In this document: positions 1,353 to 45,132 of the stretch, piece by piece
Layout of the letters: each line of letters starts with the position of its first letter
Numbering within the stretch: position 1 is the stretch's first letter
NCBI RefSeq assembly: GCF_048593235.1
Contig: NC_133622.1
Location: forward strand, 239,227,198-239,291,197
DNA length: 64,000 nt
Source: Sminthopsis crassicaudata
Lineage: Eukaryota
Reading direction: 5' to 3'
Translations under genes and position numbers: made by a program
Notes under the pieces: generated by a model
Told to the model about the DNA's origin: nothing
Database searches by the model: none
Seen by the model: only the letters and a program-made list of their open reading frames with translations

Positions 1353-2607
1353 TAGTGTGCTTTCCTTCTTAAAAATTTCTTCAAAATTTATAGAGTAGAT
1401 AACAAGTTTTGAGATTCAAGTGTATTTAGAGAATATATTCAAAATTAACAAACACTATTGTTAACAAACAATAGCAGGCTAATTTTTCCATTCCGTATAG
1501 CTTGGAAAAATGTACACTATTTGTGTCAAATATAAATTCTGAAATTTATATGAAGTGTTTCCTCTAATTCCCAGCCCCTGCTTAGAAATCACATAATAAT
1601 TCAGCAAGAGGATAAACAAACTAAATAGATAGAAAAATAGACAAAGAGATATCTCTATTCATAGATATTTATATATACATATATGCATATTGATAGATAT
1701 ACATCTATACATACACACATACACAAATGCACACAAATTTGTTAGAAAATAGACTTGAAAGAGAGATGAAATTATAGATAAAAACATATAGGAATTTTGA
1801 TAACTAAGTTAAATGATGACATTCCAGAAAGAGTGTCAAAAATTGAGTAGGGAAAAATTGAAAAGAAATAAAGATAAAAATGAATGATTATTTGTTTTAT
1901 TCCTGTCTGGAAATAAATGTTAGGAAAATTAACAAGGAAAGAAATGTATTTTTTGGATTTTCTCCATTCAGAATTTTCAGCATTTGGACATTGTTTTCAA
2001 TTGCATCATTTCATACTGACTATTAAATGTTTTATGGCTGTTGTGTTCAAAAACATGAGAGATCCTATCAGTCACCCCTAATTCTACACCCCTGTTCAAA
2101 CATAATATATCTCTCTTTACTTGGTCCTTTGCTCTCCTCTAAGTTATGAGTGCCTCTTATTCCCTCCTGTCTTCATGTATCCTTTATGAAAATTTTCACA
2201 AAACACAAATTCGAGTTTTCAGTAAAATCTAATTTCACAAATGAATTAGTACTAATTTTGTAGACCTATTATTTCTTTGACATAAATTGATTTCATTATG
2301 GACTTAAAACTCCCAATTAGACTGGAATTTGACCTGTAACTTTGAAATATTAGTGAGTTGCCTTGAATATTGAAAGGTTAAGTATTGGTGGGAGAATCAC
2401 AGTTAAGTATGTGTCAAAGGAAAGAAGAATCTAAGACTTTCTGAATTCAAGATCGATCTTTTATCGACTAGGAAATCTTGGCTTTCATGATGGAAACGTG
2501 ATTTCATTAAATGTCCTCTAATTGTCTTTATTTGTTGACCGTATCACCCTCTCATTTCACTATTCTTCTTTTCAGGATATATTTTAAAATTCCTTTCAAC
2601 TTCAGCC

Positions 2608-3543
2608 ATGATGACATCTAGCAAAAATCACAGTGTTGCTCCAGTCATTTTCATTCTGGTGGGATTTTCTGATTACCCAGAATTTCAGATTCCTCTCTTT
2701 TTGATATTTTTGACTATTTATGCAATCACTGTGATGGGTAATCTTGGAATGATTACAGTCATTATTATGAACACCAAATTACATACGCCAATGTATTTTT
2801 TTCTTAAACACTTATCCTTTGTGGATTTCTGTTACTCTACTGTTGTTGCACCAAAACTGCTGGAAAACTTAGTTGCAGAAGATAGGGCAATATCTTTTTC
2901 TGCTTGCATCACACAATTCTTCTTTGCTGCTAACTGTGCTTTGACTGACACCTTCATGTTGGCAGTGATGGCATATGATCGTTTTGTGGCCATTTGTAAT
3001 CCCCTTTTATACATGGTCATCATGTCCCAGAAACGTTGTGTTCTAATGATGGTTGCAGCATACTCCTGGGGCATACTCTTCTCTCTGCTTTTCACCTACT
3101 CTCTCCTTGTATTATCTTTTTGTGGGACTAATATTATTAATAATTTTGTCTGTGAGTATTCTGGCATACTCTCTGCCTCCTGCTCTGATAAACACTTCAG
3201 TGAGCTGATACTTTTTATATTTGCCAATTTTAATATGCTGAGTACACTCATGGTTATAACCTCTTCTTATATTTTTATTTTTGTAACTGTGATGAAAATG
3301 CATTCAGTTAGGGCAAGGCATAAAGCCTTCTCCACTTGTGCTTCTCATCTGACAGCTGTTGCAGTCTTCTATGGAACAGTCTTATTCCTCTACTGTATAC
3401 CCAACACTAAAAGCTCCTGGTTTACCACTAAATTGGGCTCTGTTTTCTATACAGTTGTCATCCCTATGCTGAACCCCCTTATATACAGTCTAAGAAACAA
3501 TGAAGTGAAGGAAACAATCAGGAAGTTAATGAACAAAAAATGA
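2608..3543 (+). CDS. Olfactory receptor, class II, OR5D-like (clade A1), 311 aa, intact
   Basis: Motifs [41 protein letters not shown] and N-glycosylation site NHS. Splice acceptor ttcttcttttcAG ends at 2575. The LYCIPNTK and GFSDYPE segments resemble the OR5D subfamily. Confidence 0.97.
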   Translation: MMTSSKNHSVAPVIFILVGFSDYPEFQIPLFLIFLTIYAITVMGNLGMITVIIMNTKLHTPMYFFLKHLSFVDFCYSTVVAPKLLENLVAEDRAISFSACITQFFFAANCALTDTFMLAVMAYDRFVAICNPLLYMVIMSQKRCVLMMVAAYSWGILFSLLFTYSLLVLSFCGTNIINNFVCEYSGILSASCSDKHFSELILFIFANFNMLSTLMVITSSYIFIFVTVMKMHSVRARHKAFSTCASHLTAVAVFYGTVLFLYCIPNTKSSWFTTKLGSVFYTVVIPMLNPLIYSLRNNEVKETIRKLMNKK

Positions 3544-4833: not shown

Positions 4834-6545
4834 TATAATTTTGTTGAGGCAAGTAGAAAATTAAAAATTATAACTCATAATTTTTAGTAATTTAATCATT
4901 TTATTAATAATTCCAGCAGATTATTAATAAGAGAGAGATCATTAGGTTACATCTCTTAGATCAGAGTTTTCATGGTAGTGGGATCACAAAGATCAGTTAT
5001 TGCCAACATATTTTGGGGTATATGACTTAGGTCACTCAAATTTTGGTCATAGAGATATCAGTTTCCATTAAACATGTCTTGATAATAGGTGTAGTCAACA
5101 TTTTCTCCTAATCTGTATAAGTAAGCACAATGAGCAGGAAAACATTCAATCAATTTAAACATTTGATTTCTTTTACTATCTCATTATATATCTTGATTTC
5201 AGGTAAGCTTAGAGAATTCCCAACACTGGATGATTTCTGGATGAAGAAATAGAAAAAGAAAAAAAAAAGCCTGGTCTAATACAATACCTCATCATTAAAT
5301 ATAGGGAAAATATTAATTTCCCCCAAAAGGAAGATTTTCCAAGAAGTAATTCTTATGAAAAATTCATTTTGAGAAAAAGTCAATTAGTTTGTAAACCCCA
5401 ATTTTATACTTACTCCACCAATATGTCCTTATTGAGAACAAACATGTATGGTGATTCAATGCTACTTTGAAATTAAAACTATTTTTAAATGGATTTGCAA
5501 TCTCTTAATCCAAATTAAAAGTGAGAATATATAGGTGTCAACAAATATTTATTCTATCTCAAATGAGATATGTCTTTATTTGTTAGGGTAAATTAAAGTT
5601 GATCCTTTTCTTGAAGCAAACAAAGATAAAAATGATAATGTATCGTCTGAATCTGAATTCTCTTCTCCTACCCTCTACCCACCAAAAAAAAAAAAAAAAA
5701 CACAAAACAAAACGAAAAACCAACTATTTTATTCCAGATACTTTCCACATTTTAGATTCTAAGAATGCTATCTTGTTTTCTGCTTGGTTGATGCAGTTGA
5801 AAAGGAGGCTAAATGAAAGTCATCTGTCACTTTCTCCCCTTCCTTTTTATTTGGTAATTTTGTTCTGACACAATATATTTTGTCAATTGTTTCCCCTGAA
5901 CTTAACATCACAGTTATCTAATTTTTCTGGTATAAATATCTGCATATTTTATGGCATTTCATATGTTCAAATCTGGAATGAAATTGTCTTTACAAAAAAG
6001 GAACCTAATGAAATATGTAGTCTATTTTTATATTAAAAAAAGTTGCTGTTGTTCAATGTTTTCATATGTGTCTGAGTCTGTGACTCTATGTGAATTTTTC
6101 TTGGAAGATATTGCAGAACTCAGCCTTTTAGTTCTCCAGAACATTTCATGTATAAAGAAATAAGGGAAACAGAATTAAGTGATCTATCCAGGATGACACA
6201 AAACTTAAATCTTTCTGACTGCCCAATGCTACCCTTTTCTGAATTACCCAGATCCCCAATAAAGAGTGATTAAACAATTGCAAGAATAACAGAATATCAG
6301 TGTTATGGAACAATATATACTTAATCATTATTATTATATCTTTGTTCCAGACAATTATATGACAAAAAGAAAAGGGGAATAAAACAGCAATTTAATTTTA
6401 AAATGAATATTGACTGTTCATGGCAATGTGCTGGGTAAGAGGAGTCTGGGAAAACACACACAATTGAATGGATAAAGGGTATTAATTCCTTTTTTGTATG
6501 GAAAATAGAGGGATTTTTTTACCACTTCATATAATATTCATAGAG

Positions 6546-6980
6546 TGTTGGGATTACTAGGTGAGAATTCAGGTTTTCTGGACAATTACAAGGTGAGAAC
6601 TCAGGTTGACTTGATAGAGGGGGCAAGCTCATTGGCTGGGGTGGTTCTTCCCAGAAGCCCTTGCATTATCCCACGCCCATTCTCTGGGAGGATAAAAAGA
6701 GACAGCACTGGGCGCAGAGAGCAGATCGGCCTGGAGAAGGATAAGAGCTGGAGGAGATTCAGAGCCAGGTTTCAAGAAGAAAAACTCTCTGCATTACATC
6801 AGGCCTGACGGGGCTCTCTGCAGGAAGGGAAGTCACTTCTAAGGACAAGAGTTAACAGCAACTGCCTGGAGACAACGGTTCACTACAGGAAGAAGAATCT
6901 GTCTGAAAGATTTGAGTAGACACAGCAGATCTCTTCCCAGAGAGCGATCCAGCAGCTTCTAGAGACGACAGCTCGTTATA
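6546..6980 (+). repeat. 5' LTR of the gag-only provirus
   Basis: Starts TGTTGG and ends CGTTATA. Reverse CCAAT (attgg) near 6631 and TATA-like GATAAAAA at 6691. No differences from 9564-9998 found by eye. Confidence 0.97.
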
Positions 6981-6982
6981 TT

Positions 6983-7000
6983 TGGCGCCCAACGTGGGGC
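6983..7000 (+). promoter_or_regulatory. Primer-binding site for tRNA-Lys1,2 (CUU)
   Basis: TGGCGCCCAACGTGGGGC, an exact 18-nt complement of the tRNA-Lys(CUU) 3' end, 2 nt after the LTR. Confidence 0.97.
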
Positions 7001-7051
7001 AAGGACTTTTGCTTATCCTGACAAGAAGAGCTAGACCAGACCTTCGCAATT

Positions 7052-7069
7052 TGGTGCCCGAACAGGGAC
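7052..7069 (+). promoter_or_regulatory. Second primer-binding site, for tRNA-Lys3 (UUU)
   Basis: TGGTGCCCGAACAGGGAC, a 17/18 match to TGGCGCCCGAACAGGGAC (HIV-1/MMTV-type PBS). The single C>T is at a CpG. Preceded by CA-ATT, like a U5 end. Confidence 0.92.
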
Positions 7070-7237
7070 AGACACAGTCCTGATTCCAGTGGAAAAGCTT
7101 CCGATCTAGATCTCAGTCTCTCTGACCCAGAACCGTGAGTAAGGAGGAAACTTTGTTAAAGATTAAGTGAGCGTGCTAATAGATAAATAAGGAACTTAAC
7201 TTGTTAAGGGCTAAACCAGGAATCTCTTATAGCTGAA

Positions 7238-9067
7238 ATGGGGCACATGTTAGCTAAATTCAATCCCTGGACCTCAGCCGACTCAACCCCAGCCCCAGAA
7301 GCAACCTCAGCCCCACCCCCATTCAGGAGTGGTACTATAGAGAGTATAATCAACATAATTGAGGAGCAGAGTTTACTTGTAACCTGGGTACAGATTGCTA
7401 AACTCTTGGCTGCATTAAGACGCACATCTCCTTGGTTCTTAGAGGAAGAAAAGATAGATGTAGATAAATGGAAGCTAGTGGGATATGAAATGAAAGAATT
7501 TCAAGCAAAAAATGGGCCTCGTTCAATTTCTGCAGAAGTATTTTATATCTACAACATAGTTCAATTAGCCTTAAACTATCAAGCAAGTTGTAGGAGAAGG
7601 AAAAGTTCTAAAAATGAACAGAGGAGGAAGTGTGAGGAAAAAAGGAACGATCAAGATCTTTCCCTAGAGCAAGAGGATTTAAATGAGGAATTATGGTATG
7701 ATTCTCTTGAAGAAGCTTCAACCCTGCCTAGAGAACAGATTATTGACAGGCCCACATCAACCCCACCTTCAGAGATGGAGGAAGAAAGAGGGGAAGAGGC
7801 AGAAACACAAACAGAATTGCCTGTGAAGAAGCCTAAGCCTATGACAAGATTAGAAAAAGCATTGGTTAAAGCTAAAAGAGAAGGACAGGATATAAGTGAT
7901 TTTATACATGCATATCCTGTGATTGAAAATACTGACTCTGTAGGTAAAAAAAGGAGAAGATATGCACCTTTAGATTTGAATAAAATTAAGGATTTGAAAA
8001 AAGGTTGTACCCTTTATGGGGCTACATCAGCTTATGTCAAAATGTTACTAGATGGTTTGTCTTATGAAGTCCTAACCCCGAATGATTGGAAATCCATAGC
8101 AAGGACATGTCTGGAACCTGGAGAAAATTTATTATGGCTTGCGGAATTTCATGAATTATGTAAAATTCAAGTCAGATGCAATTTGGAAATAGGAGTTAAC
8201 ACACAATTCACTTTTGAGCACTTAGCTGGTGAAGGTCAGTATGGAGAGAATTCAGAACAGATTCATTATACCATGACAATATATGAACAAATTGCTAAGG
8301 CTGCAATAAAAGCTTGGGGTGTCCTCCCTGGACAGAAAGATCGGGGAGAGGCTTTCACTAAAATACAGCAAGGTCCCAATGAACCTTTTGCAGATTTTGT
8401 GGGACGTTTGCAAACTGCTGTCAAAAGAACTATTGGAGAAAATTCAGCTACAGAAATAATGACCAGACATCTGGCTAAGGAAAATGCCAATGAGATTTGC
8501 AAAAGAATTATATGGGGATTAGACAAAGATGCTCCTTTAGAGGAGATCATAAGACGCTGTGCTACAGTGGGAACAAATGCTTTTTATACCCAGACAATGA
8601 TGAATGTGGAGAGACAGGGTCCCTCCTGGCAAGGGCCTTCTAGAGAAACTCGGAGATGTTTTCAATGTGGAAAAATTGGACATCTAAGAGCTCAGTGTAG
8701 ATTTGGAGATACAGTGAAAAGACAGGGTGAGAGAAGACCTAAAACCCCATGTCCAAAATGCAACAGAGGATTCCATTGGGCATCAGAGTGTAGAATAATT
8801 CAGGGAAATGGGATGAGGGGCCCAGGTCCAGGGCCCCAGGCAAAAAAGACTTGGGGCATGATGGCAGCTGATGTTACACCTAAAGAGCCTTTAGAAGGCC
8901 AGGACTCTGATTTAATCAATCAGCAGAGAAGCAATCACATGGCAGAAAGGGATTACCTGATAAGTCAGTCAAAAGGCAATCAGATTGCAAAAATGGATTA
9001 CACTTGGGGAGAATACAGGCCTTTTAAACCAACAGGGCTGTGTCCAGTGCAAACAACTCCAATGTAA
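7238..9067 (+). CDS. gag: Betaretrovirus-like Gag polyprotein, 609 aa, open
   Basis: MG start; MA motif SPWF...IDVDKWKLVG; CA motifs LTPNDWKSIARTCL and MHR FTKIQQGPNEPFADFVGRL; two CCHC knuckles CFQCGKIGHLRAQC and CPKCNRGFHWASEC; GNGMRG at the end of NC. Confidence 0.96.
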   Translation: MGHMLAKFNPWTSADSTPAPEATSAPPPFRSGTIESIINIIEEQSLLVTWVQIAKLLAALRRTSPWFLEEEKIDVDKWKLVGYEMKEFQAKNGPRSISAEVFYIYNIVQLALNYQASCRRRKSSKNEQRRKCEEKRNDQDLSLEQEDLNEELWYDSLEEASTLPREQIIDRPTSTPPSEMEEERGEEAETQTELPVKKPKPMTRLEKALVKAKREGQDISDFIHAYPVIENTDSVGKKRRRYAPLDLNKIKDLKKGCTLYGATSAYVKMLLDGLSYEVLTPNDWKSIARTCLEPGENLLWLAEFHELCKIQVRCNLEIGVNTQFTFEHLAGEGQYGENSEQIHYTMTIYEQIAKAAIKAWGVLPGQKDRGEAFTKIQQGPNEPFADFVGRLQTAVKRTIGENSATEIMTRHLAKENANEICKRIIWGLDKDAPLEEIIRRCATVGTNAFYTQTMMNVERQGPSWQGPSRETRRCFQCGKIGHLRAQCRFGDTVKRQGERRPKTPCPKCNRGFHWASECRIIQGNGMRGPGPGPQAKKTWGMMAADVTPKEPLEGQDSDLINQQRSNHMAERDYLISQSKGNQIAKMDYTWGEYRPFKPTGLCPVQTTPM

Positions 9068-9400
9068 TTGCCAGATGATGAGAAGAGATTTAGAAAGTGG
9101 TAAATAGAATGTAATTAGATAGGTTAACTGCCTGGGAGAGAGGGTTTGCTTGTATTTCTTCAGCAGGAGAAGGAATCAGATGGGTGCCAACAAGTCATAT
9201 TCGCCTTGTCCATCAGAGAGAGACAGAAAAAGAGAAAGACCTCAAAATAAAGGAGAAGATCTAAGAAACATCTGACACTGAAAGAGCATGGATAATAAGA
9301 AGACTGTTAAAGAACTTAAAAACCAGCAGGAATCATTGGACTTCCTCACACAAGATGAGAATAATGGACAATGGACTTATGGACATTTATAAATTTTCAA
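9010..9400 (+). pseudogene. Integrase C-terminal remnant followed by a decayed env TM heptad/ISD remnant
   Basis: gataggttaactgcctgggagagagggtttgcttgtatt reads DRLTAWERGFACIS..EGIRWVP (betaretroviral IN C-terminal domain). Then act gtt aaa gaa ctt aaa aac cag cag gaa tca ttg gac reads TVKELKNQQESLD, followed by atggacaat (MDN). Confidence 0.8.
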
Positions 9401-9547
9401 TTTATGATTATGATTATGTTATATACTTCTAGCATGTGTTATGTTACTATGTTACTATGTGCTTATGTAATTTATGTAATTATCTGCAATACTTCCCATA
9501 TTGATGGATTTATGTTTCAAGGTCATGACTGTCCTATGTTCTAAATC

Positions 9548-9563
9548 AAAAGAAAGGGGGAGA
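9548..9563 (+). promoter_or_regulatory. Polypurine tract
   Basis: AAAAGAAAGGGGGAGA immediately before the 3' LTR TG. Confidence 0.95.
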
Positions 9564-9998
9564 TGTTGGGATTACTAGGTGAGAATTCAGGTTTTCTGGA
9601 CAATTACAAGGTGAGAACTCAGGTTGACTTGATAGAGGGGGCAAGCTCATTGGCTGGGGTGGTTCTTCCCAGAAGCCCTTGCATTATCCCACGCCCATTC
9701 TCTGGGAGGATAAAAAGAGACAGCACTGGGCGCAGAGAGCAGATCGGCCTGGAGAAGGATAAGAGCTGGAGGAGATTCAGAGCCAGGTTTCAAGAAGAAA
9801 AACTCTCTGCATTACATCAGGCCTGACGGGGCTCTCTGCAGGAAGGGAAGTCACTTCTAAGGACAAGAGTTAACAGCAACTGCCTGGAGACAACGGTTCA
9901 CTACAGGAAGAAGAATCTGTCTGAAAGATTTGAGTAGACACAGCAGATCTCTTCCCAGAGAGCGATCCAGCAGCTTCTAGAGACGACAGCTCGTTATA
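9564..9998 (+). repeat. 3' LTR of the gag-only provirus
   Basis: 435 bp, apparently identical to 6546-6980, followed by the TSD ATAGAG. Confidence 0.97.
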
Positions 9999-10649
9999 AT
10001 AGAGTAAAAGATTTTTCTACTCTTTTCACACTTGCATCTTAGATTCATGCTTTTGAACATATAGCTTAATACTCTACAGGGATGACCATTTTTTTCCTAC
10101 ATCATATATTTTGAAATATCTCCTTACTTAAAGTACTTTAAAAATACCTTGGACAAGTTTGAAATATTTAGCAAATTCATTCTTGTGAAAGTCTTGCTTG
10201 GAGAGTAACCCAAGAAAAGTGGGATATTAGCATCCTAATTGTCTCATTTGAAAATGTCAACAAATTTCCTAGCTATGTTATTTAATTCAGAAATTTACTG
10301 TTTGTTTTTAAATAATTATAAAGTGTATGATCATTTTCCTCATTTCCAGGGTTATCTTTTATGCCTTTAATCAAATTTTTAGTTTTCTTACAAACATGAT
10401 TTTCAAAGGAATCTGAGTTTAACCTTAATCATTTACTTTACTTCTTTCTGAATATCCCCTAAAAGTGTAGTTCTTAAAATTGCTTAATAGTGTCATTTTA
10501 GTTGCTTGATGCTGTCGATTGCATGCAATGTTTCATTCATTGGATGCATATTCCAAAAGTTATCCTTTTCATAGTCTTTGTGCTGCTTTTTATTCTAGAA
10601 AATATTGTATGAGATTTTTCAGTAAAGTTTTCTTCTCTTTCTATTAGAC

Positions 10650-11978
10650 TTTCCATCAGAGCAGGTATTCTGAATTTGGGGGAGTTCTTGGAAGTGGTTG
10701 AGATTGTATGAATGCTACAGAGATTGGGGAGAATTCAAAGAAAAGCTTTCTTATAGGCACTTTTTAGCTTCCTGCAACAGTCTCATCATGTCTCAGGGAA
10801 TCCAATGATTCCTGAGAGTTTTCAAGTCTTGCAACAATCTTATCATATCTCAGGGAATACAATGATTCCTGAGGGTTTTGAGGGTTCCATTGCTAATTGT
10901 GTCCACCACTGAAAGAGCATGGCAGTTATGGCAATCGACTCATGAACATCAAAAATTGTTCATAAGACTGTTGCAGAACTTTAAAATCTTCAGGAATCAT
11001 TGGATTCCCAAGACATGATGAGACTGTTGCAAGACTTGAAGATTTTTAGAAATCATTGGATTCCCTAACACATTAAAAAAACTGTTGAAGGACTTCAAAA
11101 ACTTTCAGGGATCATTGGATTCCCTGACACGTGAAGCAATGGACAATAGATTGGTTTTGGACTATCTCTTGGCTGCTGAAGGAGGTATATGTGTGATTGT
11201 TATTTACATACCCTCCTTCTAAGACTTCTGGAAATCTTTTACAACACCATGTTGATTCATTTTCTTTGCTATATCATTACTTGCATGTATAAGTCAAAAT
11301 TGGCTATACTATATTGAGCCTGCACCGGCTATGGGGAGAGTCATCACTACTAGCCTGAGTAACACTAATATGTGCTTGTGTAATACCTCCCATGCTAATG
11401 GAGTTATATATAGTTGTTTGAAATACCCTACAGCACAGAGGAAACTGCCTAGTATCTGGTTTGACTCTCCATTTCTTTTTGGTGTTTTTACCTCCCTTCC
11501 TGAAAAGTCAGGGAGGGCATGATCACTTTTGTTCCAATACAAAAGAAAGCATGAGATGCAGAGGGTAGAAATCTGAAAGGGTGTATTTGAATCTAAGACA
11601 GCAGGGTGCTTGTAGTTAAGTACCCACTAGGTGTGAGATGGTCATTCTCTAAGCACATACCTGATGTAATGTAATGATGTGGTCAATTTAGCTGGGGTAT
11701 ACTTAGGGTAATGTGGTGATGTGATGTTCTACAGCTGCACATGCCCAGTGTGTAATGTAGTTGTGCTGAGGTATTTACAGGAGTCTCAAAGACAGAGGGC
11801 TCTTTCAGCCATGGCAATCTCAGCCACAGAGAAAATTTCAGGCTCCAGACTTCAGAGTCCAGATTTTGACCAGTCATATGGTGGCTGTTCTCCTGCCTCC
11901 TTCACTTCACTCCTCCACTAAGCCCAAAGCCTTGGGCTGATCCCTGAGGCCCACCTGAGAGCTTGCCTGGACATTACA
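10650..11978 (+). mobile_element. 3' remnant of a related ERV: env-TM repeats (partly inverted), ISD, PPT-like tract and LTR (11557-11978)
   Basis: Contains the translated segment SLDSLTREAMDNRLVLDYLLAAEGGICVIV. PPT-like aaaagaaagcatgaga (11541-11556) precedes TG...acattaCA. Shares cactgaaagagcatgg and the pre-PPT sequence with the two proviruses. Left boundary uncertain. Confidence 0.8.
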
Positions 11979-12489
11979 ATGAACATTATTGTTTATTTCT
12001 TATTTGTTCCATTAAAATTTAAGATCCTCTGTGTATCTCCAATATTAAGTGAAGCACTTGGATCATTCCAACTATTTATTAAAACTTTATTTTCTACTGG
12101 ACTTATTAGAAATGTCTTGCATGGGCTAGGAGTCTTGAATGGAGCAGTAGATATTGTCTAACTTTATCAATATTTGGTCACTAGAGTCATCAAAAGCCTT
12201 AAACATCTAGGAAATAAAGTACCCAAATAATTCAATGTAGAAAACATGTCTAACATTCATGATGATATTATGAGCTGAGGAATGCTGGTGTCCAGCAATC
12301 ATAGTAGCAGTATCCCAGATTAGAGATTCTTGACGTAGAATTGGCTGAACTCAAATCATCAAGTAGAGTCATTCTATGTATCTTCTGGTTCAAAAGAAAA
12401 TAGATGAAAGAATAAATTCTTTATCCTGAAACCAACTTTTTGCAAAGCCTTAATTGTCATGATCATGGTGAAGTCAAGAAATATTGTTT

Positions 12490-13030
12490 ACATTATCTCA
12501 ATAAGCATTTATTAAGATAATGTTGGCCAAGCCTTTCTCTAAATCCTCTGAGAAATGATCATTCAATTATGCAATGACTTGCATTTAATTATGTACTTTA
12601 TAATCTTAAGAAAAAAAATGATGTTAATACATGTGAAGGAATGCTAACTGCAAGGGAAATAACAAGGCATCTTTTTTTTTTTCTTGCATTACTTTTTTTG
12701 AGATCTCACGTATAGGGTCAGTAGAGAATCTCTAGGGCCTGGGTCCCACGGGTCTTAAAGACAAATGTAAGAGTTTCAGAGAAGCATCATGCTCAGTTTT
12801 TGAATAAAGTAAAATAATATATTTTTGAGGTTGGAAAATGGAATGAATCACCTCCTCCTTTTCCAGTTAGGGGACAAGTTTCTGATTTTCTGTTAATAAT
12901 ATGCAGCAATGGATTAATTCTGAGCTTGCTCTCTAAGAAATGGTAAGAGTATGATCTGATCTGGAAACTATCATGTCACAACATTCTTTGTATGTACTAT
13001 GGATCTAGAAAAATGAAACAGGATTCTTCA
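12490..13030 (+). promoter_or_regulatory. Candidate clade-B OR promoter/first-exon block, copy 1 (cut by L1)
   Basis: Homologous to 15127-15717, 49380-49966 and partly 60120-60330. CAATTA/TAATTA homeodomain-type sites (12564, 12586) lie upstream of O/E-like TCTCTAGGGC (12729) and GTCCCACGGG (12743). Confidence 0.45.
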
Positions 13031-14460
13031 GGGGTGGGATCAAGATGGTGGAGAAAAGTCAGGAAGCTATTCAAACATTCCCATTTTCTCCTGAAAACCA
13101 TTTGTAGCTGAACATCTGAACACAATTTGATGGAATGAAACCACTCCAACAGAAGAAACACTCGAAAATTTTCAAAAAAAGGAGAGTCTCATTGGAGTGA
13201 AGAGGATGTTGAGCACATCTCAAACAGACTTTGTGAAAGCTGGTAAGAGGGCTTTGATCACAGCAAATCATTAACTAAAACCTCAATTCCTGGTCCACTA
13301 GAGGTTAAATCAGTGGGGAAGCTTCCAGTCCCAGCTCAAAAGGCAAATTTTGGGAAACCAAGTCTTTCCTGAAAACAGCAGGCAAAGCTATTCCCTACAA
13401 AAAGAAGATAACCCCCGTCCACAAAGTCAAGGCTCAAAGTGTCATAGGAAGTTTGGCATAGTACTCCTTTACCCCAGGTATAGAACTCAATCATAAAAGT
13501 ACTAAAAGAGGAAATACCAAAAATAAAGAAAAGGAAAAAGAGCACTAAATGGAAAAGAAAAATTACTAAAATTGGAAATGTTAGTATCATAGTATCAAAA
13601 CAGCAACTCAGACAAGGACAGCATATGCATAGAAGGAATTTCAAAGAGTGATATGTATTGGTCTCAAGTCCAAAGAGCCTTCTTGGAAGTACTGAAAAAA
13701 AACAAAACATTAAAAGGCATATAAGAGATATAAAAGAATAAAAGAGAAAGGAAATGAGAGGTATGTATGAAAGAGTCAACAAAGTGAAAAAGGAAGGGAA
13801 AAAATGATTGAAAAAAATGGCCAAATGCAAAAAAAATAAAATAAAAAAGAATACAATAGCTAACTGAAGAAAATCATGAGACTGGGGCAAATGCAAGCTA
13901 ATGACTCTGTGAGACAGCAAGAATATGTCAAACAAATTAAAAAAAAATTTAAAAAATGAAAGAAAATGTGAAAGACCTCATTGGAAAAAAGGTGACCTAG
14001 AAAATAGATGCAGAAGAGACGATGTAAAACTATTGGCTTAACTGAAGGTCATGACCAAAATATGAGCCTAGATAGCCTTCTTTAAGAAATCATTAAGGAA
14101 AACTGTCATGATATTCTAAAAACAGAGGGAGAAATGCTCATTGAAAGAATCCATCAATCACCTTTTTACAGTGAACCCAAAAGGAAAACCCCAAGGAACA
14201 TTGTTGCAAAAACCCAGAACTACAATCTTAAGGAAAAAAATACTGCAAGTTGCCAGACAAAAACAATTCAAGTGTAAGGAGCAACATTTAGGATTACCCA
14301 GGATCATACAGCTTCTACAATTAAAGATTGGGGCTGACCATATAGTAGAAGGTAAAGGAGCTAGGGTTATAATCAAAAATTAACTATTCAAGGAGACTGA
14401 GCATCATTTTTTAAGGGGGAAGATGAAGCTTCAATGAAGTAAGAGATGTTCAATCATTTC
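13031..14460 (+). mobile_element. Old LINE-1 5' fragment (5'UTR plus decayed ORF1)
   Basis: Starts ggggtgggatcaagatggtggag. ORF1-like gacctagaaaatagatgcagaagagac...gaaagaatccatcaatcacc...ttgttgcaaaa. No 3' end present. Confidence 0.8.
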
Positions 14461-14482
14461 TATGGGGAAAATAAAAGAACCA

Positions 14483-15126
14483 GGGGTGGAGCCAAGATGG
14501 CAGAGAGTAGGCAAATTTTTATCAGACCTTCCCTGGCAACCCTCAGATCAACACCAAATAAAGCTTCTGTCCTGTTTTTGGAGTGACAGAACCCATCAAT
14601 ATTTAGAGTGTAGCAAATTTCCATCAGAAAATATTTTGGAGGAATTTCAGAAAAGTTCTGTTTCAATCAGGCAAGGATGGGAGAGAGGCAGCCAAGTGCA
14701 AGCAGAGCTTAGGGAACATGGGTAGTGTGGAGTTATATGCAGGACAAGGCCATGCCTACCCAGCATTGGGATGAACTGCTGCACCCGGCCACAGTAGACT
14801 ATAGCCTTTGTCACCTGTAATGGAAGATAGGAATAATCTTTACTTTGCCCTAAGAGCAGACCTCAACCTTCAGAAAAATAACCAGAAAAAGAAAAATAAC
14901 TCTGATCATAGATAGATTTTAAGAAGAAAGAGTAAAATAAACCTTGAAACCTGAGTAGAAATAAAAGTAAAGAGTAAAAATAAAAATATATATAACTTGA
15001 AGAAAAGAAGATGGCAAGAAATACAGAGTCATTTAAACTACAAATGGGAATAGGATGAACTCTCCCATAAAACAGAATCAGATAGCCAATTGAATTAATA
15101 ACCAAAATGCCACAATATATTGTTCT
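14483..15126 (+). mobile_element. Second LINE-1 5' fragment (5'UTR, scraps of ORF1 and ORF2 start)
   Basis: Starts ggggtggagccaagatggcagag. Ends in an EN-like segment, aaatgggaataggatgaactctcccataaaacag...ccacaatatattgtt. Confidence 0.7.
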
Positions 15127-18281: not shown

Positions 18282-18415
18282 GAAGTAAGATAGACTTTTC
18301 CTAGGAGTTAATGGATTCTCCTTCTCCTACATATAAGAGTGTAGAATGAATGGACATCAATTTCACTTGTATTTCACTTTTCCTAATCCATTTTTAATTC
18401 TCTCCAACAGGAATC

Positions 18416-19360
18416 ATGGTGAGCACTGGGAAAAATCAGAGTGTGGCAGTCATATTCATCCTCTTGGGATTTTCTGAGTATCCAAAGCTCCAGGTGCCCC
18501 TCTTTCTACTGTTTCTCACCATCTATGCAGTCACTGTGGTGGGAAACTTGGGTATGATTGTGATCATCAGGATCAACCCCAAACTCCACACCCCCATGTA
18601 CTTTTTTCTCCAGCACTTGTCCTTTGTGGATTTTTGTTACTCAACTATTGCCACACCAAAATTATTAGAAAATTTAGTTGTAGAAGACAGGAGCATCTCT
18701 ATCAAGGGCTGCATCTCACAGTTTTCCATTGGTGTCACCTGTGTGGTGACAGAGTCAGTGATGTTGGCTGTGATGGCCTATGACCGCTTTGTTGCAATAT
18801 GCTATCCTTTACTTTATACAGTTTTCATGTCACCAAAACGCTGTATCCTACTAGTGTCTGTTACATATTCATGGGGAGTAATTTCTTCTATTATATTCAC
18901 TTATTCTCTTCTTGTATTATCATTTTGTGAAACGAAAATCATTAATAACTTTGTATGTGAATACTCTGTCATCCTCTCTGCTTCCTGCTCTGATAAACAC
19001 TTCAGCGAGATAATATTTTTTATCTTTGCAAATCTCAATGCATTGTGCACCTTGATCACTATCCTTACATCTTATTTTCTTATTTTTGTCACTATCTTCA
19101 AAATGAATTCATCCAGTGGAAGATATAAAGCTTTCTCCACCTGTGCCTCCCACTTGACAGCCGTTTCCATCTTTTATGGGACCATCCTCTTTCTTTATTG
19201 TATTCCCAGTTCCCAAAACTCATGGCTTTTAGTCAAAGTAGGATCTGTTCTTTATATTGTGGTAATTCCTATGATAAATCCCTTAATATATAGTCTAAGG
19301 AATAATGTTGTGAAGGAAACCATCAGGAAATTAATGCATCTCAAAATAATTTCTCAATAA
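18416..19360 (+). CDS. Olfactory receptor, OR5D-like (clade B1), 314 aa, intact
   Basis: All canonical OR motifs, NQS glycosylation site, acceptor tctccaacAG ending at 18410. Confidence 0.97.
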   Translation: MVSTGKNQSVAVIFILLGFSEYPKLQVPLFLLFLTIYAVTVVGNLGMIVIIRINPKLHTPMYFFLQHLSFVDFCYSTIATPKLLENLVVEDRSISIKGCISQFSIGVTCVVTESVMLAVMAYDRFVAICYPLLYTVFMSPKRCILLVSVTYSWGVISSIIFTYSLLVLSFCETKIINNFVCEYSVILSASCSDKHFSEIIFFIFANLNALCTLITILTSYFLIFVTIFKMNSSSGRYKAFSTCASHLTAVSIFYGTILFLYCIPSSQNSWLLVKVGSVLYIVVIPMINPLIYSLRNNVVKETIRKLMHLKIISQ

Positions 19361-21657: not shown

Positions 21658-22327
21658 TTTTTTTTAAAATAATTTTTATTATATACTTTTTTATAATATT
21701 ATCCCTTGTATTCATTTTTCCAAATTATCCCCCCTTCCTCTACTCCCTCCCCCCGATGACAGACAATCCCATACATTTTACATGTGTTACAATATAACCT
21801 AGATACAATACATGTGTGTAAATACCATTTTCTTGTTGCACAATAAGCATTAGATTCCGAAGGTACATGTAACCTGGGCAGACAGATATTAGTGCTAACA
21901 ATTTACATTCACTTCCCAGTGTTCCATCTCTGGGTGTAGCTACCTCTGTCCATCATTGATCAACTGGAAGTGAGTTGGCTCTTCTTTATGTTGAAGATTT
22001 CCACTTCCATCAGAATACATCCTCATACATTATGGTTGTTGAAGTGTACAGTGATCTTCTGGTTCTGCTCATTTCATTCAGCATCAGTTGATGTAAGTCT
22101 CTCCAGGCCTCTCTGTATTCCTCCTGCTGGTCATTTCTTACAGAGCAATAATATTCCATAAACTTCATATACCATAATTTACCCAACCATTCTCCAACTG
22201 ATGGACACCCATTCAACTTCCAGTTTCTAGCTACAACAAAAAGAGCTGCCACAAACATTTTGGCACATATATGTCTCTTTCCGCTCTTTAGTATTTCTTT
22301 GGGATATAAGCCCAGTAATAGTACTGC
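21658..22327 (-). mobile_element. Young LINE-1 3' end, cut by a deletion
   Basis: T-run then ataatattatcccttgtattc...ctgatgtaagtctctccaggcc...gggatataagcccagtaatagtactgc. Matches the L1 3' ends at 32.8, 48.1 and 59.2 kb. Confidence 0.88.
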
Positions 22328-22759
22328 AGGAAGGGAAGTCACTTCTCTGGACAAGAGTTAGCAGCAACTGCCTGGAGACAACAGTTCACTACAGGAAGAA
22401 GAATCTGTCCGAGAGATTTGAGTAGACACAGCAGATCTCTTCCCAGAGAGCCCCGTCAGGCCTGATGTAATGCAGAGACTTCTCCTCTTCCTGGAGTGCT
22501 GTCCTCCAGCCCTTGTCCTTCCCCAGTCCAGAATGCTTGTCCAGGCCCAATGTTGCCTCTTTTATCCTCCCAGAGAATGGGCGTGGGATAGTGCAAGGGC
22601 TTCTGGGAAGAACCACTTCAACCAATGAGCTTGTTCCTTCTAGGATTCCTAAGGTGTAAACTCCCTTTACAGGTCTGAGCCAGAGAACTGTCAAGTCAAC
22701 CTGAGTTCTCACCTTGTAATTGTCCAGACAACCTGAATTCTCACCTAGTAATCCTAACA
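22324..22759 (-). mobile_element. Rearranged LTR of the same family as 6546-6980, with an inverted 117-bp segment
   Basis: 22452-22759 is the reverse complement of U3 (TGTTAGGATTACTAGGTGAG...). 22327-22443 matches 6821-6937 in the forward orientation. Confidence 0.92.
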
Positions 22760-24620: not shown

Positions 24621-27451
24621 AAATGTCTGCAATGTGTCAATAATTATGGCAAACATTAAAAATACAAAGAATGAATATAATTATAATATTACAACATTTT
24701 GAATTATAGTTTTCTCTTGTGACTTGATCTTGGGAAAGTACTTCATTGATAATAGTAAAAGAAATTTTTGTCAATTCCAAATAACATGAATGGAAAATAA
24801 ATCTCTCATAGTAACTATCCCCTCTGATTTCAAGGAAATCCTATTCCCTAAAGCCAGAATTTTCACTTCTTGCTTGTTTGGGCCCTAGCCAGGAAAGGTC
24901 ATTAGTTTGTAGCATCACTTTCCCAAGGTGTGTTAAGATACAAGTAAAAGTGGCAGCATCCATGCAGAGTCAAGTGAAGAGCACAATAGGAACATGGCAC
25001 AATAGGAACACGTGTCTTTCACTCTGAGTTTTTCTGCCAAATGTAGAGATTTTTTTGTACAATACAAAAATGGTTTAAGTTTCCATTTGCATAGGCTATT
25101 AAAATGTCCTTTACTGACTTCTGATTCTGGTCAAATTTTAATGATGTGGTATTTTCTACTATGACCATTGTTTTCTATTATTTACAAGCTCAATATACAT
25201 TGAACCATGGATCTAGGAATCAACTAGCCTTAATTTGATGATAACTGTACTTGAACCTAGAAAATACCTTTTATTTTCTTTTCAGAAAATTTCATCAAAT
25301 GTTTTGATTTGAAAGGAACTGCCAAGTAAAGGAGGTAGGTCCTCTCATTTTATATTTTTCACTATCATAATTTCACATTTAGTGGATGGTTATTATTTTT
25401 AGATCAATGTGATAAGCCCCAAGGATACCAGGAAGTATCAGCCTCTGAATTCGAGATCTCACAGTTCATGTGGTAAGAGATACCTACAAATCAAAACCAA
25501 ATGCAGATATTAGGACCACAAACTAAATGCCTACTGATTCTTATAATTTCTGTAATTGATTTTAAGAGAAAGTGCAATCAATAAGTATATTTCCTGAGAA
25601 AATACTTGTGAAAAAGCACAATGGAACAAAACCTGAAGGAAATGGGAAACCCTGAAGAGTGAGGGCATTTTAGGAACAATTGTTTGAGTAAAATATTTCA
25701 GGTAATTATGATTAGTATATTATGTCTGAAACAGTGCCTTCATTTAGGAGAACATTTTGGAGATAAGGCTATGGAACTGGGTATTTCTCACTTTAAAACC
25801 ATACTTGAATATCAAGTAATATACTTGATGATTTTCTTTAGCTTAGCAGATACTGCAGATACTGCAGTGCAGAGACTGACCCAGATGATACCAAAGCCTT
25901 TTCTTCTATCAAATCTCAGGTGAAGATACCAGGAGAAAAGTTTTCTGGTTAAGAATCTTCTGTTGTTCCAAATGAGCATTTCTCCCTATCTCTGCTCAAA
26001 CTATTATAAAGTCAAGGAAAGGTCAGGATCTCTTATTTACCCCCCCCACACACACAAATAATTATATGCATTAAATCTATTCTTACATGTGTCAGCTTTG
26101 AAAAGCAAGTGTAGGCAAAAGGTTTTTCTAGATAGTGACCACCTCATTTTTACCTCCTTGACAATACCGTTGTCTAATAGCTTGTTTAGAGAAAGAGTTT
26201 TGACTACGAAGATATTTTTCTATATTATTAGAAATTATAAATTTTAGCAAAATAATAATGGCAAGTAAGGATTGCAAATTATTTAAATGATTGATCATAC
26301 TCAAAGATAGACTTTATTTCTAGAATGTGATTTCCTATATATTATATATATATACCCATATATGTATGTATTTTAATTTTTCAACTTTTTTATTTATAAA
26401 ATAGATAATTAATGAGTTCTCAGATGCATGTACATTTGGAGAATATACTAAAAATCAGGGAACATATTTCAATGGGTCAGAAAAGGCTATTTTCTTAATT
26501 TTGAATAGCTTGTGATAACAGAATATTTATAAAAATCAGAAATACAAGTTATGAAGTTTAGGACTTGTTTCCTATACTTCTCATCATGTGTATTTATAGA
26601 CTTGGAAAAGAAATTAAAGTATAAAAAGGAACATATGGTGTTAAGGAAAACTAAACTAAATGATGCGATTTTTGTTACACAGAAATTTTTGGATAGAATT
26701 TCTAGAAGCTGGGTAGAAAAAAAAACTGCAAAGAAAGAAAGTTTATAATGTAGGATTATTTTGTTTTATTCATGTGTGAAAACTGATCCTGGAAATACAG
26801 CAAAAAAAGAAGCTTTGTTCTTTGGCTTTTCTCTATTCAGAATTGTCAGCATTTAGAAATTACTTCTATTTGCATCATTTCCTCTGTTTTATGACTATTG
26901 CACTCAGATCCATGATAGATCATGTCACTCACTCCTAATTCCACCATCATATTCTTTGCTTGCAACCATAACATTTCCCCCCTCTCTAGTTCTCTCCTTT
27001 CTTCTCCTCCAACTTTCCTCATCTTTTCTTTATGATTTTTCACAAAATGCAATTTGAATTGAGTTTTCAATAAATACTAATTTCACAAGTCAATTAGTAT
27101 TAATTTTGTAGACCTATAATTTATCACAAATAGATTTCATTATAAAATAAACATCCACTTTAGATTTGCATCTGATCTGTAATATGGGGTACTTGTGAAT
27201 TGCCTGAACTACTTAGAAGCTGTGGATTTGTTTTGTAGAATCCCAGGTTAATATGTATCTGAAGAAGTTAAGAAACTAAGACTTTCTCAATTCAAGATTC
27301 ATCTTTTATCTACTAGACATGGTGGAAATGTGTGATTCTTATAAATGTGTTCTAATTGTCTTTATTTATTGAGATATATCAATTGTTTTTGTCTCTCATT
27401 TTACTATTCTTCTTTTCAGGAAATATTTTAAAATTTCTTTCAACTTTACCC

Positions 27452-28387
27452 ATGATGATCACTGAAAAAAACCATAGTGGTGTTCCAGTCATTTTCATTC
27501 TCTTGGGATTTTCTGACTACCCAGAATTTCAGATTCCATTCTTCCTGATATTTTTGACCATCTATATAATCACTGTGATGGGGAATCTTGGAATGATTGC
27601 AATCATTATCATGAACCCCAAATTACATACTCCAATGTATTTTTTCCTCAAGCACTTATCTTTTGTGGATTTCTGTTCCTCCACTGTTGTTGCACCAAAG
27701 CTGCTGGAAAACTTAGTTGCAAAAGATAGGACAGTGTCCATCTCTATTTGCATCACACAATTCTTCTTTTTTGCTACTTATGCTTTGACTGACACTTTCA
27801 TGTTGGCAGTGATGGCATATGATCGCTTTGTGGCCATTTGTAATCCCCTTTTATACATGACCATCATGTCCCAGAAACGTTGTGTCCTGCTGGTGGTGGC
27901 AGCATACTCCTGGGGCACACTCTTCTCTCTGGTTTTCACCTATTCTCTCCTTACATTATCTTTTTGTGGGACTAACATCATTGATAATTTTGTCTGTGAC
28001 TATTCTGGCATACTCTATGCTGCCTGCTCTGATAAACACTTTAGTGAGCTGATTCTTTTTATAGTTACTAATTTTAATATGCTGAGCACACTCATGGTCA
28101 TTATTTCTTCTTATGTTTTTATTTTTGTAACTGTCATGAAGATGCATTCAGCTAGAGCAAGGCACAAGGCGTTCTCTACTTGCGCCTCTCACCTGACAGC
28201 TGTTGGAGTCTTTTATGGAACAATCTTATTCTTGTACTGTATACCCAATACTAAAAGCTCCTGGTTTACTGCTAAATTGGGATCTGTTTTCTATGCAGTG
28301 GTCATCCCCATGCTGAACCCCCTTATATACAGTCTGAGGAACAATGAAGTGAAGGAAATACTCAGGAAGTTAATGGGCAAAATATGA
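27452..28387 (+). CDS. Olfactory receptor, OR5D-like (clade A2), 311 aa, intact
   Basis: True start is ATG 27452 (MMITEKNHS), aligned with the paralogs and downstream of the acceptor ttcttttcAG ending at 27419. All OR motifs present. Confidence 0.96.
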   Translation: MMITEKNHSGVPVIFILLGFSDYPEFQIPFFLIFLTIYIITVMGNLGMIAIIIMNPKLHTPMYFFLKHLSFVDFCSSTVVAPKLLENLVAKDRTVSISICITQFFFFATYALTDTFMLAVMAYDRFVAICNPLLYMTIMSQKRCVLLVVAAYSWGTLFSLVFTYSLLTLSFCGTNIIDNFVCDYSGILYAACSDKHFSELILFIVTNFNMLSTLMVIISSYVFIFVTVMKMHSARARHKAFSTCASHLTAVGVFYGTILFLYCIPNTKSSWFTAKLGSVFYAVVIPMLNPLIYSLRNNEVKEILRKLMGKI

Positions 28388-40094: not shown

Positions 40095-41801
40095 CCCATC
40101 AATTCAACTATTGGAGACCACAAACTAAATGTCTATTGATTCTTGTAGATAACTTGTGTAATTAAATTTAAGAAAAGTGTAGTCATTAAGGCTAGTTACT
40201 GAGAAAACATTTCTTAAAGGTCAAAAAGGAACAAATTCTGAAAGAAATGGAATATGAAAATGGAGGGTCTTTCAGGTAGGGTCAATTGTACAAGTAAAAT
40301 CAGGAAGAATCAGGGATTTATGATCAGTATACTTTGACTGAAAAAATGTCGCTATTAATTAGAACATTATGGAAATTAGGCTGTACAATTGGGTATTTCC
40401 CACTTTAAAACAAGACTAGAATTTTCAAGCAATGGACTTGAGGATTTTCTTTAGCTTTCTAGATGCTCTGTACCAAGAATGATCCAGATGATTACAAAGA
40501 CTTTTCTTCCATCAAGTATAAGATAAAAACACCAGGAGTCAGCTTTCTATTCAGAAACTTCTGCTGTTCCAAATAAGCATTTACCCCAATCTCTGCTCAT
40601 TTTTATTTATATTTATCTCTGCTCTATTATTATACAGACAAGGAATGACCTGAATCACTTGTTTGTCCTCATGGAATGAAAATAAATATTAAATCTATTA
40701 CTGTATATGTCACATTTAAAAAGCAAGAATAATGGATTTTTGAAGGTAGTTAACATTTTACCTTCTATATCTCTGGAAATACCCTGTCTAATACTACAGA
40801 CAGAGGAAGGTTTTTGAATATTAAGTTTTTTCCTATAAGATTATAAATCACAATTGTAAAGAAATAAGAATGGCAACTAATGTTTGGAAGATTTTAAATA
40901 AATTACACTAAATGATAATGGACATAATTTCGATTGTGTTTTACTTTTTAAAAAAATTCTTAAACTATTTCTCTTTTCAGATTAGATAATTAGTGAGTTC
41001 TCAGATTCATGTGCATTTGGAGAATAAATTCAAAATTAACGAGCATAGTTTCAATAGGTAAGAGCATGCTGTGTTCTCCATTCACTATAGATTTGGATTA
41101 TGTCCATTCAGAATTTTCAGCATTTGGACATTGCTTTGATTAGCTTCATTTCTTATTGATGACTTTGTATTTTTGGCCATCATTCTCAGAACCATGACAT
41201 ATCCTATTACCCCTAATTCTACCCACTCTTCAGATGCAAGCATAATATCTCCTCTAAATTCTAGTTTTCTTATTTGGTGTCCTCTAAATTATGAGTACAT
41301 CTTATTCTCATCCTTTTCTCATCTATCCTTTATGGATTTTTAACAAAACCAAATTTGATTTGGGTTTTTAGTAAATACTAATTTCAAAAGTGAATTAGTA
41401 TTAATTAATTTACAAATTAATTTAATTTTTAAATCTATAATGTCATTGATATGAATAGATTTCTTTATGAATTCAACCTTTCCTAATTAGACTGAAATCT
41501 GACCTGTCTCTTGGGGTATCAGTGAGTTGTCTGGACTACTGAGAAGTTAAGTATTTCTGCCAGAAGCACAGGTTAGTTTTGTAGTAGAATCACAGGTTAG
41601 TATTAGTCAGAGAATATAAAAACCTTTCTGAGTTAAAGATTGATGTTTAATCAACTAGGGAATCTTCATTTATATCAGAAACATATAATTTTTTAAATGT
41701 CCTCTGTCTTCATTTATTGAGATATACCACTCGTCTATGTACTTCTCATTGCACTATTCTTCTTTTCAGGATATATTTTAAAATTCCTTTCACCTTTAGC
41801 C

Positions 41802-44072: not shown

Positions 44073-44379
44073 TCTCCCCCTTTCTTTTGTTTTAGAACAT
44101 ATGGTGGTCATGACCTTGAAACATAAATCCATCAATATGGGAGGCATTACACATAATTACATAAATTAAATAAACACATAGTAACATAGTAACATTATAC
44201 ATGCTAGAAGTATATAACAAATAACATAATCAAATAATCATAAATTGAGAATTTATAAATGTCCATAAGTCCATTGTCCATTAGTCTCATCTTGTGTTAG
44301 GAAATCCAATGATTCCTGCTGGTTTTAAAATTCTTTAACAGTCTTCTTATTAGCCATGCTCTTTCAGTGTCAGAGTTTC

Positions 44380-45129: not shown

Positions 45130-45132
45130 ATA

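What the first reader, a model, noticed from the sequence alone, without database searches (positions are those of the whole stretch)
6546..9998. Very young gag-only provirus with apparently identical LTRs and an intact 609-codon gag
Seen: no differences between the two 435-bp LTRs by eye, a perfect 6-bp TSD, and an uninterrupted gag with both zinc knuckles, but no pro, RT, RNase H or functional env. Inference: a recently mobilised non-autonomous element that depends on Pol in trans. It could still make Gag, either as its own packaging protein or as a dominant-negative on helper virus. It may be insertionally polymorphic.
Basis: partly seen in the sequence, partly recalled or inferred. Interest (0 to 1): 0.7.

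Follow-up and report, generated by a model that had tools for sequence, protein, structure and literature searches.

The report
Young gag-only dunnart retroviral parasite element
This is a recently inserted, stripped-down endogenous retrovirus of a dunnart-like marsupial that has lost its copying enzymes but kept one intact structural gene; it belongs to a multi-copy family that most likely spreads by borrowing enzymes from complete relatives.

Summary
Observation confirmed: two 435-bp LTRs with 0 differences, a 6-bp target duplication, and an open 609-codon betaretroviral gag with both zinc knuckles. Two paralogous olfactory-cluster segments show the empty site.

The element is an internal-deletion derivative of the published env-less dasyurid clade MEBrv 3. 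About 3 kb of pro, RT, RNase H and integrase core is missing, and the last ~17 Gag residues are integrase-derived. The same junction-derived tail ends 6 of 28 retrieved proteins, all Sminthopsis RefSeq models on 4 contigs, so this is a family, not a one-off deletion.

The integrase remnant and pro frame are decayed, while gag is open and capsid is more conserved than the rest of Gag. Best reading (0.7): a helper-dependent retrotransposon that keeps Gag under selection, like mouse IAP 1Δ1 or plant TR-GAG.

Extras: a mosaic gag, a second unused primer-binding site, and a non-canonical TA end on both LTRs. Not shown: a helper with this LTR, expression of this locus, and polymorphism (one hint only). 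LTR identity bounds the age only to about 1–3 My. New variant of a known kind; interest 0.42.

The parts
6540..6545 (+). 5' copy of 6-bp target-site duplication
   Evidence: single copy of the corresponding 6-mer at two paralogous empty sites
6546..6980 (+). 5' LTR, 435 bp; starts TG, ends TA (non-canonical); no AATAAA or ATTAAA signal
6983..7000 (+). Primer-binding site for tRNA-Lys1,2, 18 of 18 match, 2 nt after the LTR; the one used in the last replication
   Evidence: motif identity in PMC8775094 passage
7052..7069 (+). Second PBS-like site, tRNA-Lys3 type, 17 of 18 match; not used in the last replication (the 3' LTR does not extend to it)
   Evidence: chance about 2e-6
7238..9067 (+). gag ORF, 609 codons; no upstream ATG in the leader
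7346..7573 (+). Matrix domain (Gag_p10, residues 37-112); different ancestry from the capsid
7961..8554 (+). Capsid N- and C-terminal domains with major homology region
8657..8791 (+). Two CCHC zinc knuckles (residues 474-487, 505-518)
8803..9014 (+). gag/pro overlap: slippery-type heptamer at 8803; the -1 (pro) frame has 3 stops (8869, 8881, 8908), the gag frame none
   Evidence: comparison with MEBrv 3 record by eye
9014..9015 (+). Deletion junction: start of pro joined to the integrase C-terminal region, about 3 kb missing
   Evidence: by eye against the MEBrv 3 record; bridged by a contig with 17 differences in 176 nt
9015..9264 (+). Decayed integrase C-terminal remnant; its first ~17 codons are read in frame as the Gag tail; three indels, two of them frameshifting
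9265..9547 (+). Short 3' untranslated region with one unit of the repeat seen in tandem in MEBrv 3; no env ORF
9548..9563 (+). Polypurine tract
9564..9998 (+). 3' LTR, identical to the 5' LTR
9999..10004 (+). 3' copy of the target-site duplication

Best explanation
A recent insertion of a multi-copy, non-autonomous sub-family of the env-less dasyurid betaretroviral clade MEBrv 3, in a dunnart (Sminthopsis-like) genome. Shown: LTR-PBS-gag-integrase remnant-PPT-LTR anatomy, integrase-type insertion, a junction shared with other loci, and an open gag beside decayed pro and integrase remnants. Inferred: the LTR drives a ~3-kb RNA that is translated into Gag; this Gag binds its own RNA and co-assembles, inside the cell, with Gag-Pro-Pol from complete MEBrv 3-type copies; helper protease, RT and integrase then copy and insert it, primed by tRNA-Lys1,2. 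Making its own Gag gives the RNA a cis advantage, which keeps the frame under selection. Co-packaging with related RNAs explains the mosaic gag and the leftover second PBS.
For: Anatomy and empty paralogous sites. The junction-derived C-terminus ends 6 of the 28 proteins retrieved, all Sminthopsis RefSeq models, on contigs of 4 different lengths. One of them differs from this Gag at 47 of 409 aligned residues, and a contig bridges the junction with 17 differences in 176 nt, so the deletion is older than this insertion. The integrase remnant differs from the window's related element at 37 of 249 bases with 3 indels; by eye all three indels lie on this element's side, since the other two sequences agree in length. 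Two frameshifting indels in 250 nt against none in 1777 nt of gag-derived sequence: P about 0.015. Three stops in the pro frame against none in the overlapping gag frame. P(gag stays open) by substitutions alone is 0.02 at 5% and 0.0015 at 10% neutral divergence. Variable columns among junction-sharing copies: 2 of 219 in capsid against 22 of 390 elsewhere (Fisher P 0.004; two other groupings P 0.02 and 6e-5; copies are not independent). Summed contig depth on the element is about 0.5-2 million against about 30 on the flanks in run X2 (not a copy number, but high-copy). Intact gag-pro-pol MEBrv 3 copies with identical LTRs are reported in the fat-tailed dunnart (PMC11334065). Precedent for a cis effect of the encoded protein: IAP 1Δ1 (PMC6466679 passage).
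Against: No helper with this LTR or this Gag type was found: searches for longer Gag-Pol and Pol proteins returned nothing (weak negatives), and no genome was held. This Gag differs from the devil proteins that resemble the MEBrv 3 representative at 85-87 of 219 capsid residues, so co-assembly with that lineage is not assured. The open gag could come from recent recombination with helper RNA rather than selection in cis; the discordant matrix and capsid trees show that recombination happens. Expression of this locus is not shown: runs X8 and X17 are only guessed to be RNA, and X8 has a contig on non-element flank. The 6 other loci are known only as proteins; their LTRs were not seen. The TA end should lower integration efficiency (general statement in PMC2857682 passage) and is unexplained.
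Confidence: 0.7

Rival explanations
1. Same non-autonomous family, but its Gag is a passenger: the RNA is packaged wholly by helper Gag (as ETn, VL30 or bovine D-type elements), and gag is open only because it is refreshed by recombination with helper RNA.
For: Matrix and capsid trees disagree: matrix groups with P0004 and the P0007/P0009/P0010 set (100/100), while capsid groups with P0003/P0027/P0028, which carry the other matrix type. Recombination between competent and defective genomes is documented for a bovine ERVK (PMC10924933 passages). 4 of the 8 members of the 90% cluster are well under full length (341-566 aa).
Against: The segment just upstream of the junction has a dead pro frame (3 stops) but an open gag frame, so it was not recently taken from a helper with a working pro. 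The integrase-derived tail is also kept in frame in 5 of the 6 sharers.
Confidence: 0.17
2. The Gag acts as a host-tolerated dominant-negative or decoy that limits the parent element (restriction-factor-like), and is kept for that reason.
For: Open frame with conserved capsid; an altered C-terminus; this copy has His at residue 3 where the close copies have Gln, which fails a simple N-myristoylation pattern that they pass (pattern recalled, weak). One family member has at least 4 RefSeq isoform accessions.
Against: The family is multi-copy and this insertion is young; a strongly poisonous Gag would block the particles that carry its own RNA (inference). No fixed ortholog: the one homologous-flank contig seen does not enter the LTR.
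Confidence: 0.06
3. A full-length provirus inserted here and lost pro-pol afterwards, or the copy was moved by L1 or by segmental duplication.
For: Internal deletions after insertion are common in ERVs (own knowledge); the cluster is rich in duplications.
Against: The integrase remnant is 15% diverged from a relative and frameshifted while the LTRs differ at 0 of 435. The junction tail is shared with 6 other models. Complete LTRs at both ends, no poly(A), a 6-bp duplication and empty paralogous sites.
Confidence: 0.03
4. LTR identity is an assembly or polishing artefact (or gene conversion), and the insertion is older than it looks.
For: High-copy family; the window has a 233-N gap elsewhere; the TA end on both LTRs would be explained by one later mutation plus homogenisation.
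Against: At least 5 internal positions differ from nearly all family contigs in all 4 runs (7143, 7312, 8611, 8703, 9487; list truncated), so the copy was not polished to the family majority. Gag differs from three full-length copies at only 12-16 residues. The target duplication is perfect.
Confidence: 0.08

Closest known systems
MEBrv 3 (marsupial endogenous betaretrovirus 3; Harding et al. 2024, PMC11334065; read parts 1-5 of 7 and supplement parts 1, 3, 4)
   Same: Env-less class II ERV amplified in dasyurids. Integrase C-terminal stretch matches at 30 of 37 residues by eye; same gag/pro overlap layout, Lys-type PBS and 3' repeat unit.
   Different: The described form is 7.3 kb with intact gag, pro and pol. 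This one is 3.45 kb, lacks about 3 kb of pro-pol, has an unrelated-looking LTR, a Gag about 55-60% identical to the devil proteins closest to the representative, an integrase-derived Gag tail, a second PBS and a TA end. The parts I read do not mention a gag-only sub-family.
Mouse IAP 1Δ1 (PMC6466679, passages)
   Same: Internally deleted, non-autonomous derivative of an env-less class II ERV whose remaining ORF joins gag to pol sequence; reported to act in cis.
   Different: 1Δ1 loses part of gag and encodes a long gag-pol fusion; here gag is complete and only ~17 integrase residues are appended.
Plant TR-GAG elements (PMC8704663, passages)
   Same: Two LTRs and a single full-length gag ORF; mobilised by a related autonomous element.
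   Different: The example read is a copia-derived plant element; here the element is a mammalian betaretroviral derivative with a residual integrase piece.
ETn/MusD, VL30, bovine ERVK[2-1-LTR] D-type, recKoRV (PMC6466679, PMC10924933, passages)
   Same: Non-autonomous ERV morphs that depend on competent relatives and can outnumber them.
   Different: The bovine D-type has no intact ORF (read); ETn and VL30 are non-coding (recalled). This family keeps a full gag.
Zebrafish Bhikhari-1/-2 (PMC13269885, passage)
   Same: Multi-copy ERV families whose Gag is retained and made.
   Different: Host developmental roles are reported there; none is shown here. That they are gag-only is recalled, not read.

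Membership tests
Class II (betaretrovirus-like) ERV | Gag most similar to betaretroviral Gag (matrix p10, capsid, two CCHC knuckles) | tested here: met
   Top PDB hits are HERV-K Gag (E 1.6e-39) and related p27 capsids; Pfam Gag_p10, p24, p24_C
Class II (betaretrovirus-like) ERV | RT phylogeny within class II | not testable with these tools
   The element has no RT
Class II (betaretrovirus-like) ERV | tRNA-Lys PBS, PPT, 6-bp target duplication | tested here: met
Class II (betaretrovirus-like) ERV | TG...CA termini | tested here: not met
   TG...TA on both LTRs; relatives in the window and the MEBrv 3 record end in CA
MEBrv 3 clade | pol sequence groups with the MEBrv 3 representative | tested here: inconclusive
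   Only an integrase remnant is left; 30 of 37 residues match by eye; no tree could be built with the record
MEBrv 3 clade | No env ORF | tested here: met
MEBrv 3 clade | Intact gag, pro and pol in a ~7.3-kb element (autonomous form) | tested here: not met
   3453 bp; pro frame closed, RT and RNase H absent. Filed as a derivative, not as the described form
MEBrv 3 clade | Dasyurid host | tested here: met
   98% identical Gag in Sminthopsis crassicaudata RefSeq models; the host is inferred from this
Non-autonomous gag-retaining LTR element (IAP 1Δ1 / TR-GAG mode) | Same deletion structure at many loci | tested here: met
   Junction-derived tail in 6 of 28 proteins, on 4 contigs; protein-level evidence only
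Non-autonomous gag-retaining LTR element (IAP 1Δ1 / TR-GAG mode) | Autonomous partner sharing LTR and packaging sequences | tested here: inconclusive
   Not found; contig loose ends show copies that share the LTR, PBS or 3' region but carry other internal sequence; intact copies reported
Non-autonomous gag-retaining LTR element (IAP 1Δ1 / TR-GAG mode) | Gag is translated and favours its own RNA in cis | not testable with these tools
   Only indirect signs of selection

The most novel reading that the evidence does not exclude
A still-mobilising mammalian counterpart of TR-GAG elements: a high-copy, gag-only parasite of MEBrv 3 that has kept its own Gag under cis selection through many replication cycles, swapped matrix domains and primer sites by recombination, and integrates even with a non-canonical TA end. 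It could be a main source of new germ-line insertions in dunnarts.
Probability: 0.35. Interest if true: 0.62.

Novelty: new variant of a known kind. Interest (0 to 1): 0.42.

Why it matters
Non-autonomous ERV morphs dominate new insertions in mouse and cattle, but those described either encode nothing or a truncated fusion. A natural mammalian family that keeps a complete Gag while discarding Pol gives a population-level test of whether retroviral Gag favours its own RNA in cis. It could also revise counts of what drives the MEBrv 3 expansion in dasyurids, and supply polymorphic markers in a laboratory marsupial. As a single locus between olfactory receptor genes (nearest ORFs end at 3543 and start at 18398) it is unlikely to matter to the host.

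Tried and rejected
No genome held, so no copy census, helper search or dN/dS. Longer Gag-Pol proteins: none of 2207 candidates passed. Pol proteins related to the neighbouring element's integrase: none of 38 candidates passed. Both are weak negatives. Full HMMER search with the Gag tail gave 4 hits; only P0006 (devil) is a clear relative and it ends before the junction tail; the 3 others were not followed up. LTR-end patterns: 0 hits in viral contigs and metagenome contigs. Earlier scan findings: nothing in 3 look-ups. Leader RNA fold is no more stable than shuffles (z 1.14; 86 of 100 fold as well), so no packaging structure is claimed. The Tox-GHH match at 9268-9429 (E 0.024, below cut-off) is treated as chance. 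No PPxY, P[ST]AP or YPxL late motif in Gag (motifs recalled): fits intracellular assembly but is weak. Transcription was not concluded from X8 and X17, because they are contigs and only guessed to be RNA. Literature: 9 answered searches listed no paper on a gag-only dasyurid ERV family; only open-licence papers are covered, and Repbase/Dfam entries could not be checked. Supplement parts 2 and 5-12 of PMC11334065 were seen only through a term search, and its GitHub annotation files not at all; they may list such copies.
Full report
Observation. The element spans 6546-9998. Its LTRs are 435 bp and identical at every base, with identity ending exactly at both boundaries. A 6-base duplication flanks it (chance about 3e-4). 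Two paralogous segments of the surrounding olfactory-receptor cluster align to both flanks contiguously, at about 30660 and 47365, with one copy of the corresponding 6-mer. The insertion is therefore real and later than those duplications. gag (7238-9067) is open for 609 codons, has no upstream ATG, and carries matrix, both capsid domains, a major homology region and two CCHC knuckles. Its best solved relatives are HERV-K Gag and p27-type capsids.

Host and family. The closest proteins are Sminthopsis crassicaudata RefSeq models: a 90% cluster of 8, the best at 98% identity. The exact window protein is not in the collection. I infer a dunnart host. Harding et al. 2024 (PMC11334065; parts 1-5 of 7 read) describe MEBrv 3, an env-less class II clade amplified in dasyurids, with intact gag-pro-pol copies and identical LTRs in the fat-tailed dunnart. 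Their MEBrv 3 record (supplement parts 3 and 4) could be compared only by eye. Its integrase C-terminus matches our remnant at 30 of 37 residues, and the gag/pro overlap and 3' repeat unit correspond. Our Gag is a distinct sub-lineage: it differs from the devil proteins that resemble that record at 85-87 of 219 capsid residues.

The deletion. Sequence up to about 9014 is gag plus the first part of the overlapping pro frame. From 9015 it matches the integrase C-terminal region of a related element at 43697-45506. By eye against the MEBrv 3 record, about 3 kb is missing. The join is in the gag frame, so the last ~17 Gag residues are integrase-derived, and the gag stop falls at a frameshifting deletion in the remnant. 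Of the 28 proteins held, 6 end with this tail (P0001, P0020, P0022, P0026, P0028, and P0002 with a late shift). All 6 are dunnart models, on contigs of 4 lengths. A contig in run X8 bridges the junction with 17 differences in 176 nt. The deletion is thus an old, replicated family trait. Limits: these loci are known as proteins only, and one could be an allele of this locus.

Selection on gag. The remnant differs from its relative at 37 of 249 bases with three indels. Two frameshifting indels in 250 nt against none in 1777 nt give P about 0.015; one of them defines the stop, so this is mildly favourable by construction. In the 70-codon overlap the pro frame has 3 stops and the gag frame none. 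A gag of this length stays open in 2% of neutral simulations at 5% divergence and 0.15% at 10%. Among close copies capsid varies less than the rest of Gag in three groupings (P 0.004, 0.02, 6e-5; not independent). Against: matrix and capsid trees disagree (13 of 28 proteins lacked matrix and were left out of that tree), so recombination could refresh gag; and 4 of 8 cluster members are well under full length.

Oddities. First, a perfect Lys1,2 PBS at 6983 is followed by a 17-of-18 Lys3-type site at 7052 (chance 2e-6). The 3' LTR ends where the 5' LTR meets the first site, so the second was not used in the last cycle; with the mosaic gag it points to a recombinant leader (inference). PBS switching between these two types is reported for SERV (PMC8775094, one passage). 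Second, both LTRs end in TA where relatives end in CA. Loss of CA is said to reduce coordinated integration (PMC2857682, passages), yet the duplication here is perfect. Either the end was tolerated, or the base changed later and was homogenised; I could not see whether other copies share it. Third, residue 3 is His where close copies have Gln, failing a recalled myristoylation pattern; weak.

Age, copy number, polymorphism, expression. Zero differences in 435 bp bound the age to 1.1-2.9 My under assumed rates. At least 5 internal bases differ from nearly all family contigs in 4 of 4 runs (list truncated), which argues against polishing to the family majority and allows some age. I laid 4 of the 22 runs listed. 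In X2 the summed depth is 0.5-2 million on the element against about 30 on the flanks: high-copy, but not a count. One X2 contig reaches the target site and does not enter the LTR, a hint of an empty allele on a haplotype 1-3% diverged. Expression is not shown, because X8 and X17 are contigs guessed to be RNA.

Mechanism. Most likely (0.7) the RNA makes Gag, is bound by it in cis, and co-assembles intracellularly with helper Gag-Pro-Pol that supplies protease, RT and integrase. Shown: structure, integrase-type insertion, shared junction, and frame-specific conservation. Inferred: translation, cis preference, identity of the helper, and present activity. No helper was found directly (no genome). 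Rivals: passenger Gag refreshed by recombination (0.17), artefactual LTR identity (0.08), restriction-like Gag (0.06), and local deletion or passive copying (0.03).

Comparison and novelty. It works like IAP 1Δ1 (PMC6466679, passages) and plant TR-GAG (PMC8704663, passages). It differs from the ORF-less bovine D-type (PMC10924933, passages) in keeping a full gag. Bhikhari Gag (PMC13269885, passage) shows that such Gag can be co-opted, but nothing suggests that here. It is a derivative of MEBrv 3, not the described autonomous form. Nine literature searches listed no description of this sub-family; repeat libraries and closed-access papers were not covered. Verdict: real, a new variant of a known kind, interest 0.42.

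Noticed in passing
window 43697-45506 (-): Older related provirus with a different LTR (LTRs differ at 37 of 373 bases), a 6-bp target duplication, a decayed Lys1,2-type PBS and an internal region reduced to a broken integrase plus the same 3' region (87% identical to the focal element). A second, independent internal-deletion form, with no gag.
   Followed up: partly
window 22324-22759: LTR of the same subfamily as the focal element (242 of 273 aligned bases match) on the minus strand, with its 3' part inverted (22324-22451, 95%), lacking its U5 end and abutting what looks like L1 sequence. It has a 48-nt stretch that the focal LTR lacks.
   Followed up: partly
window 10770-11980: Old MEBrv 3-like 3' fragment with several units of the tandem repeat (the first two inverted), a region resembling the env remnant of the MEBrv 3 record by eye, and a third LTR type ending in CA, only 770 bp from the focal element.
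   Followed up: partly
window 6114-6541, run X2 record 13: A 558-nt contig lies on the 5' flank up to the target site, and its other 124 letters do not enter the LTR: a hint of an empty allele. That contig differs from the window at 15 of 434 bases and the second piece was not shown, so a diverged haplotype or paralogue is possible.
   Followed up: partly
window 2539-3543, 18398-19360, 27356-28387, 41721-42737, 55410-56459: Five open olfactory-receptor-like ORFs in tandem, 70-91% alike in 300-nt blocks; identified by eye, not scanned.
   Followed up: no
P0003, P0027, P0028 (Sminthopsis): Gag models with nearly the same capsid but a different matrix type, like devil P0008; P0028 also has the junction tail. 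Shows matrix swapping within the family.
   Followed up: yes
window 61103-62331 and 13030-15100: L1-like ORF1 pieces; the one at 61 kb has two long open stretches (178 and 244 aa) and may be fairly young.
   Followed up: no
window 54540-54772: Assembly gap of 233 N.
   Followed up: no
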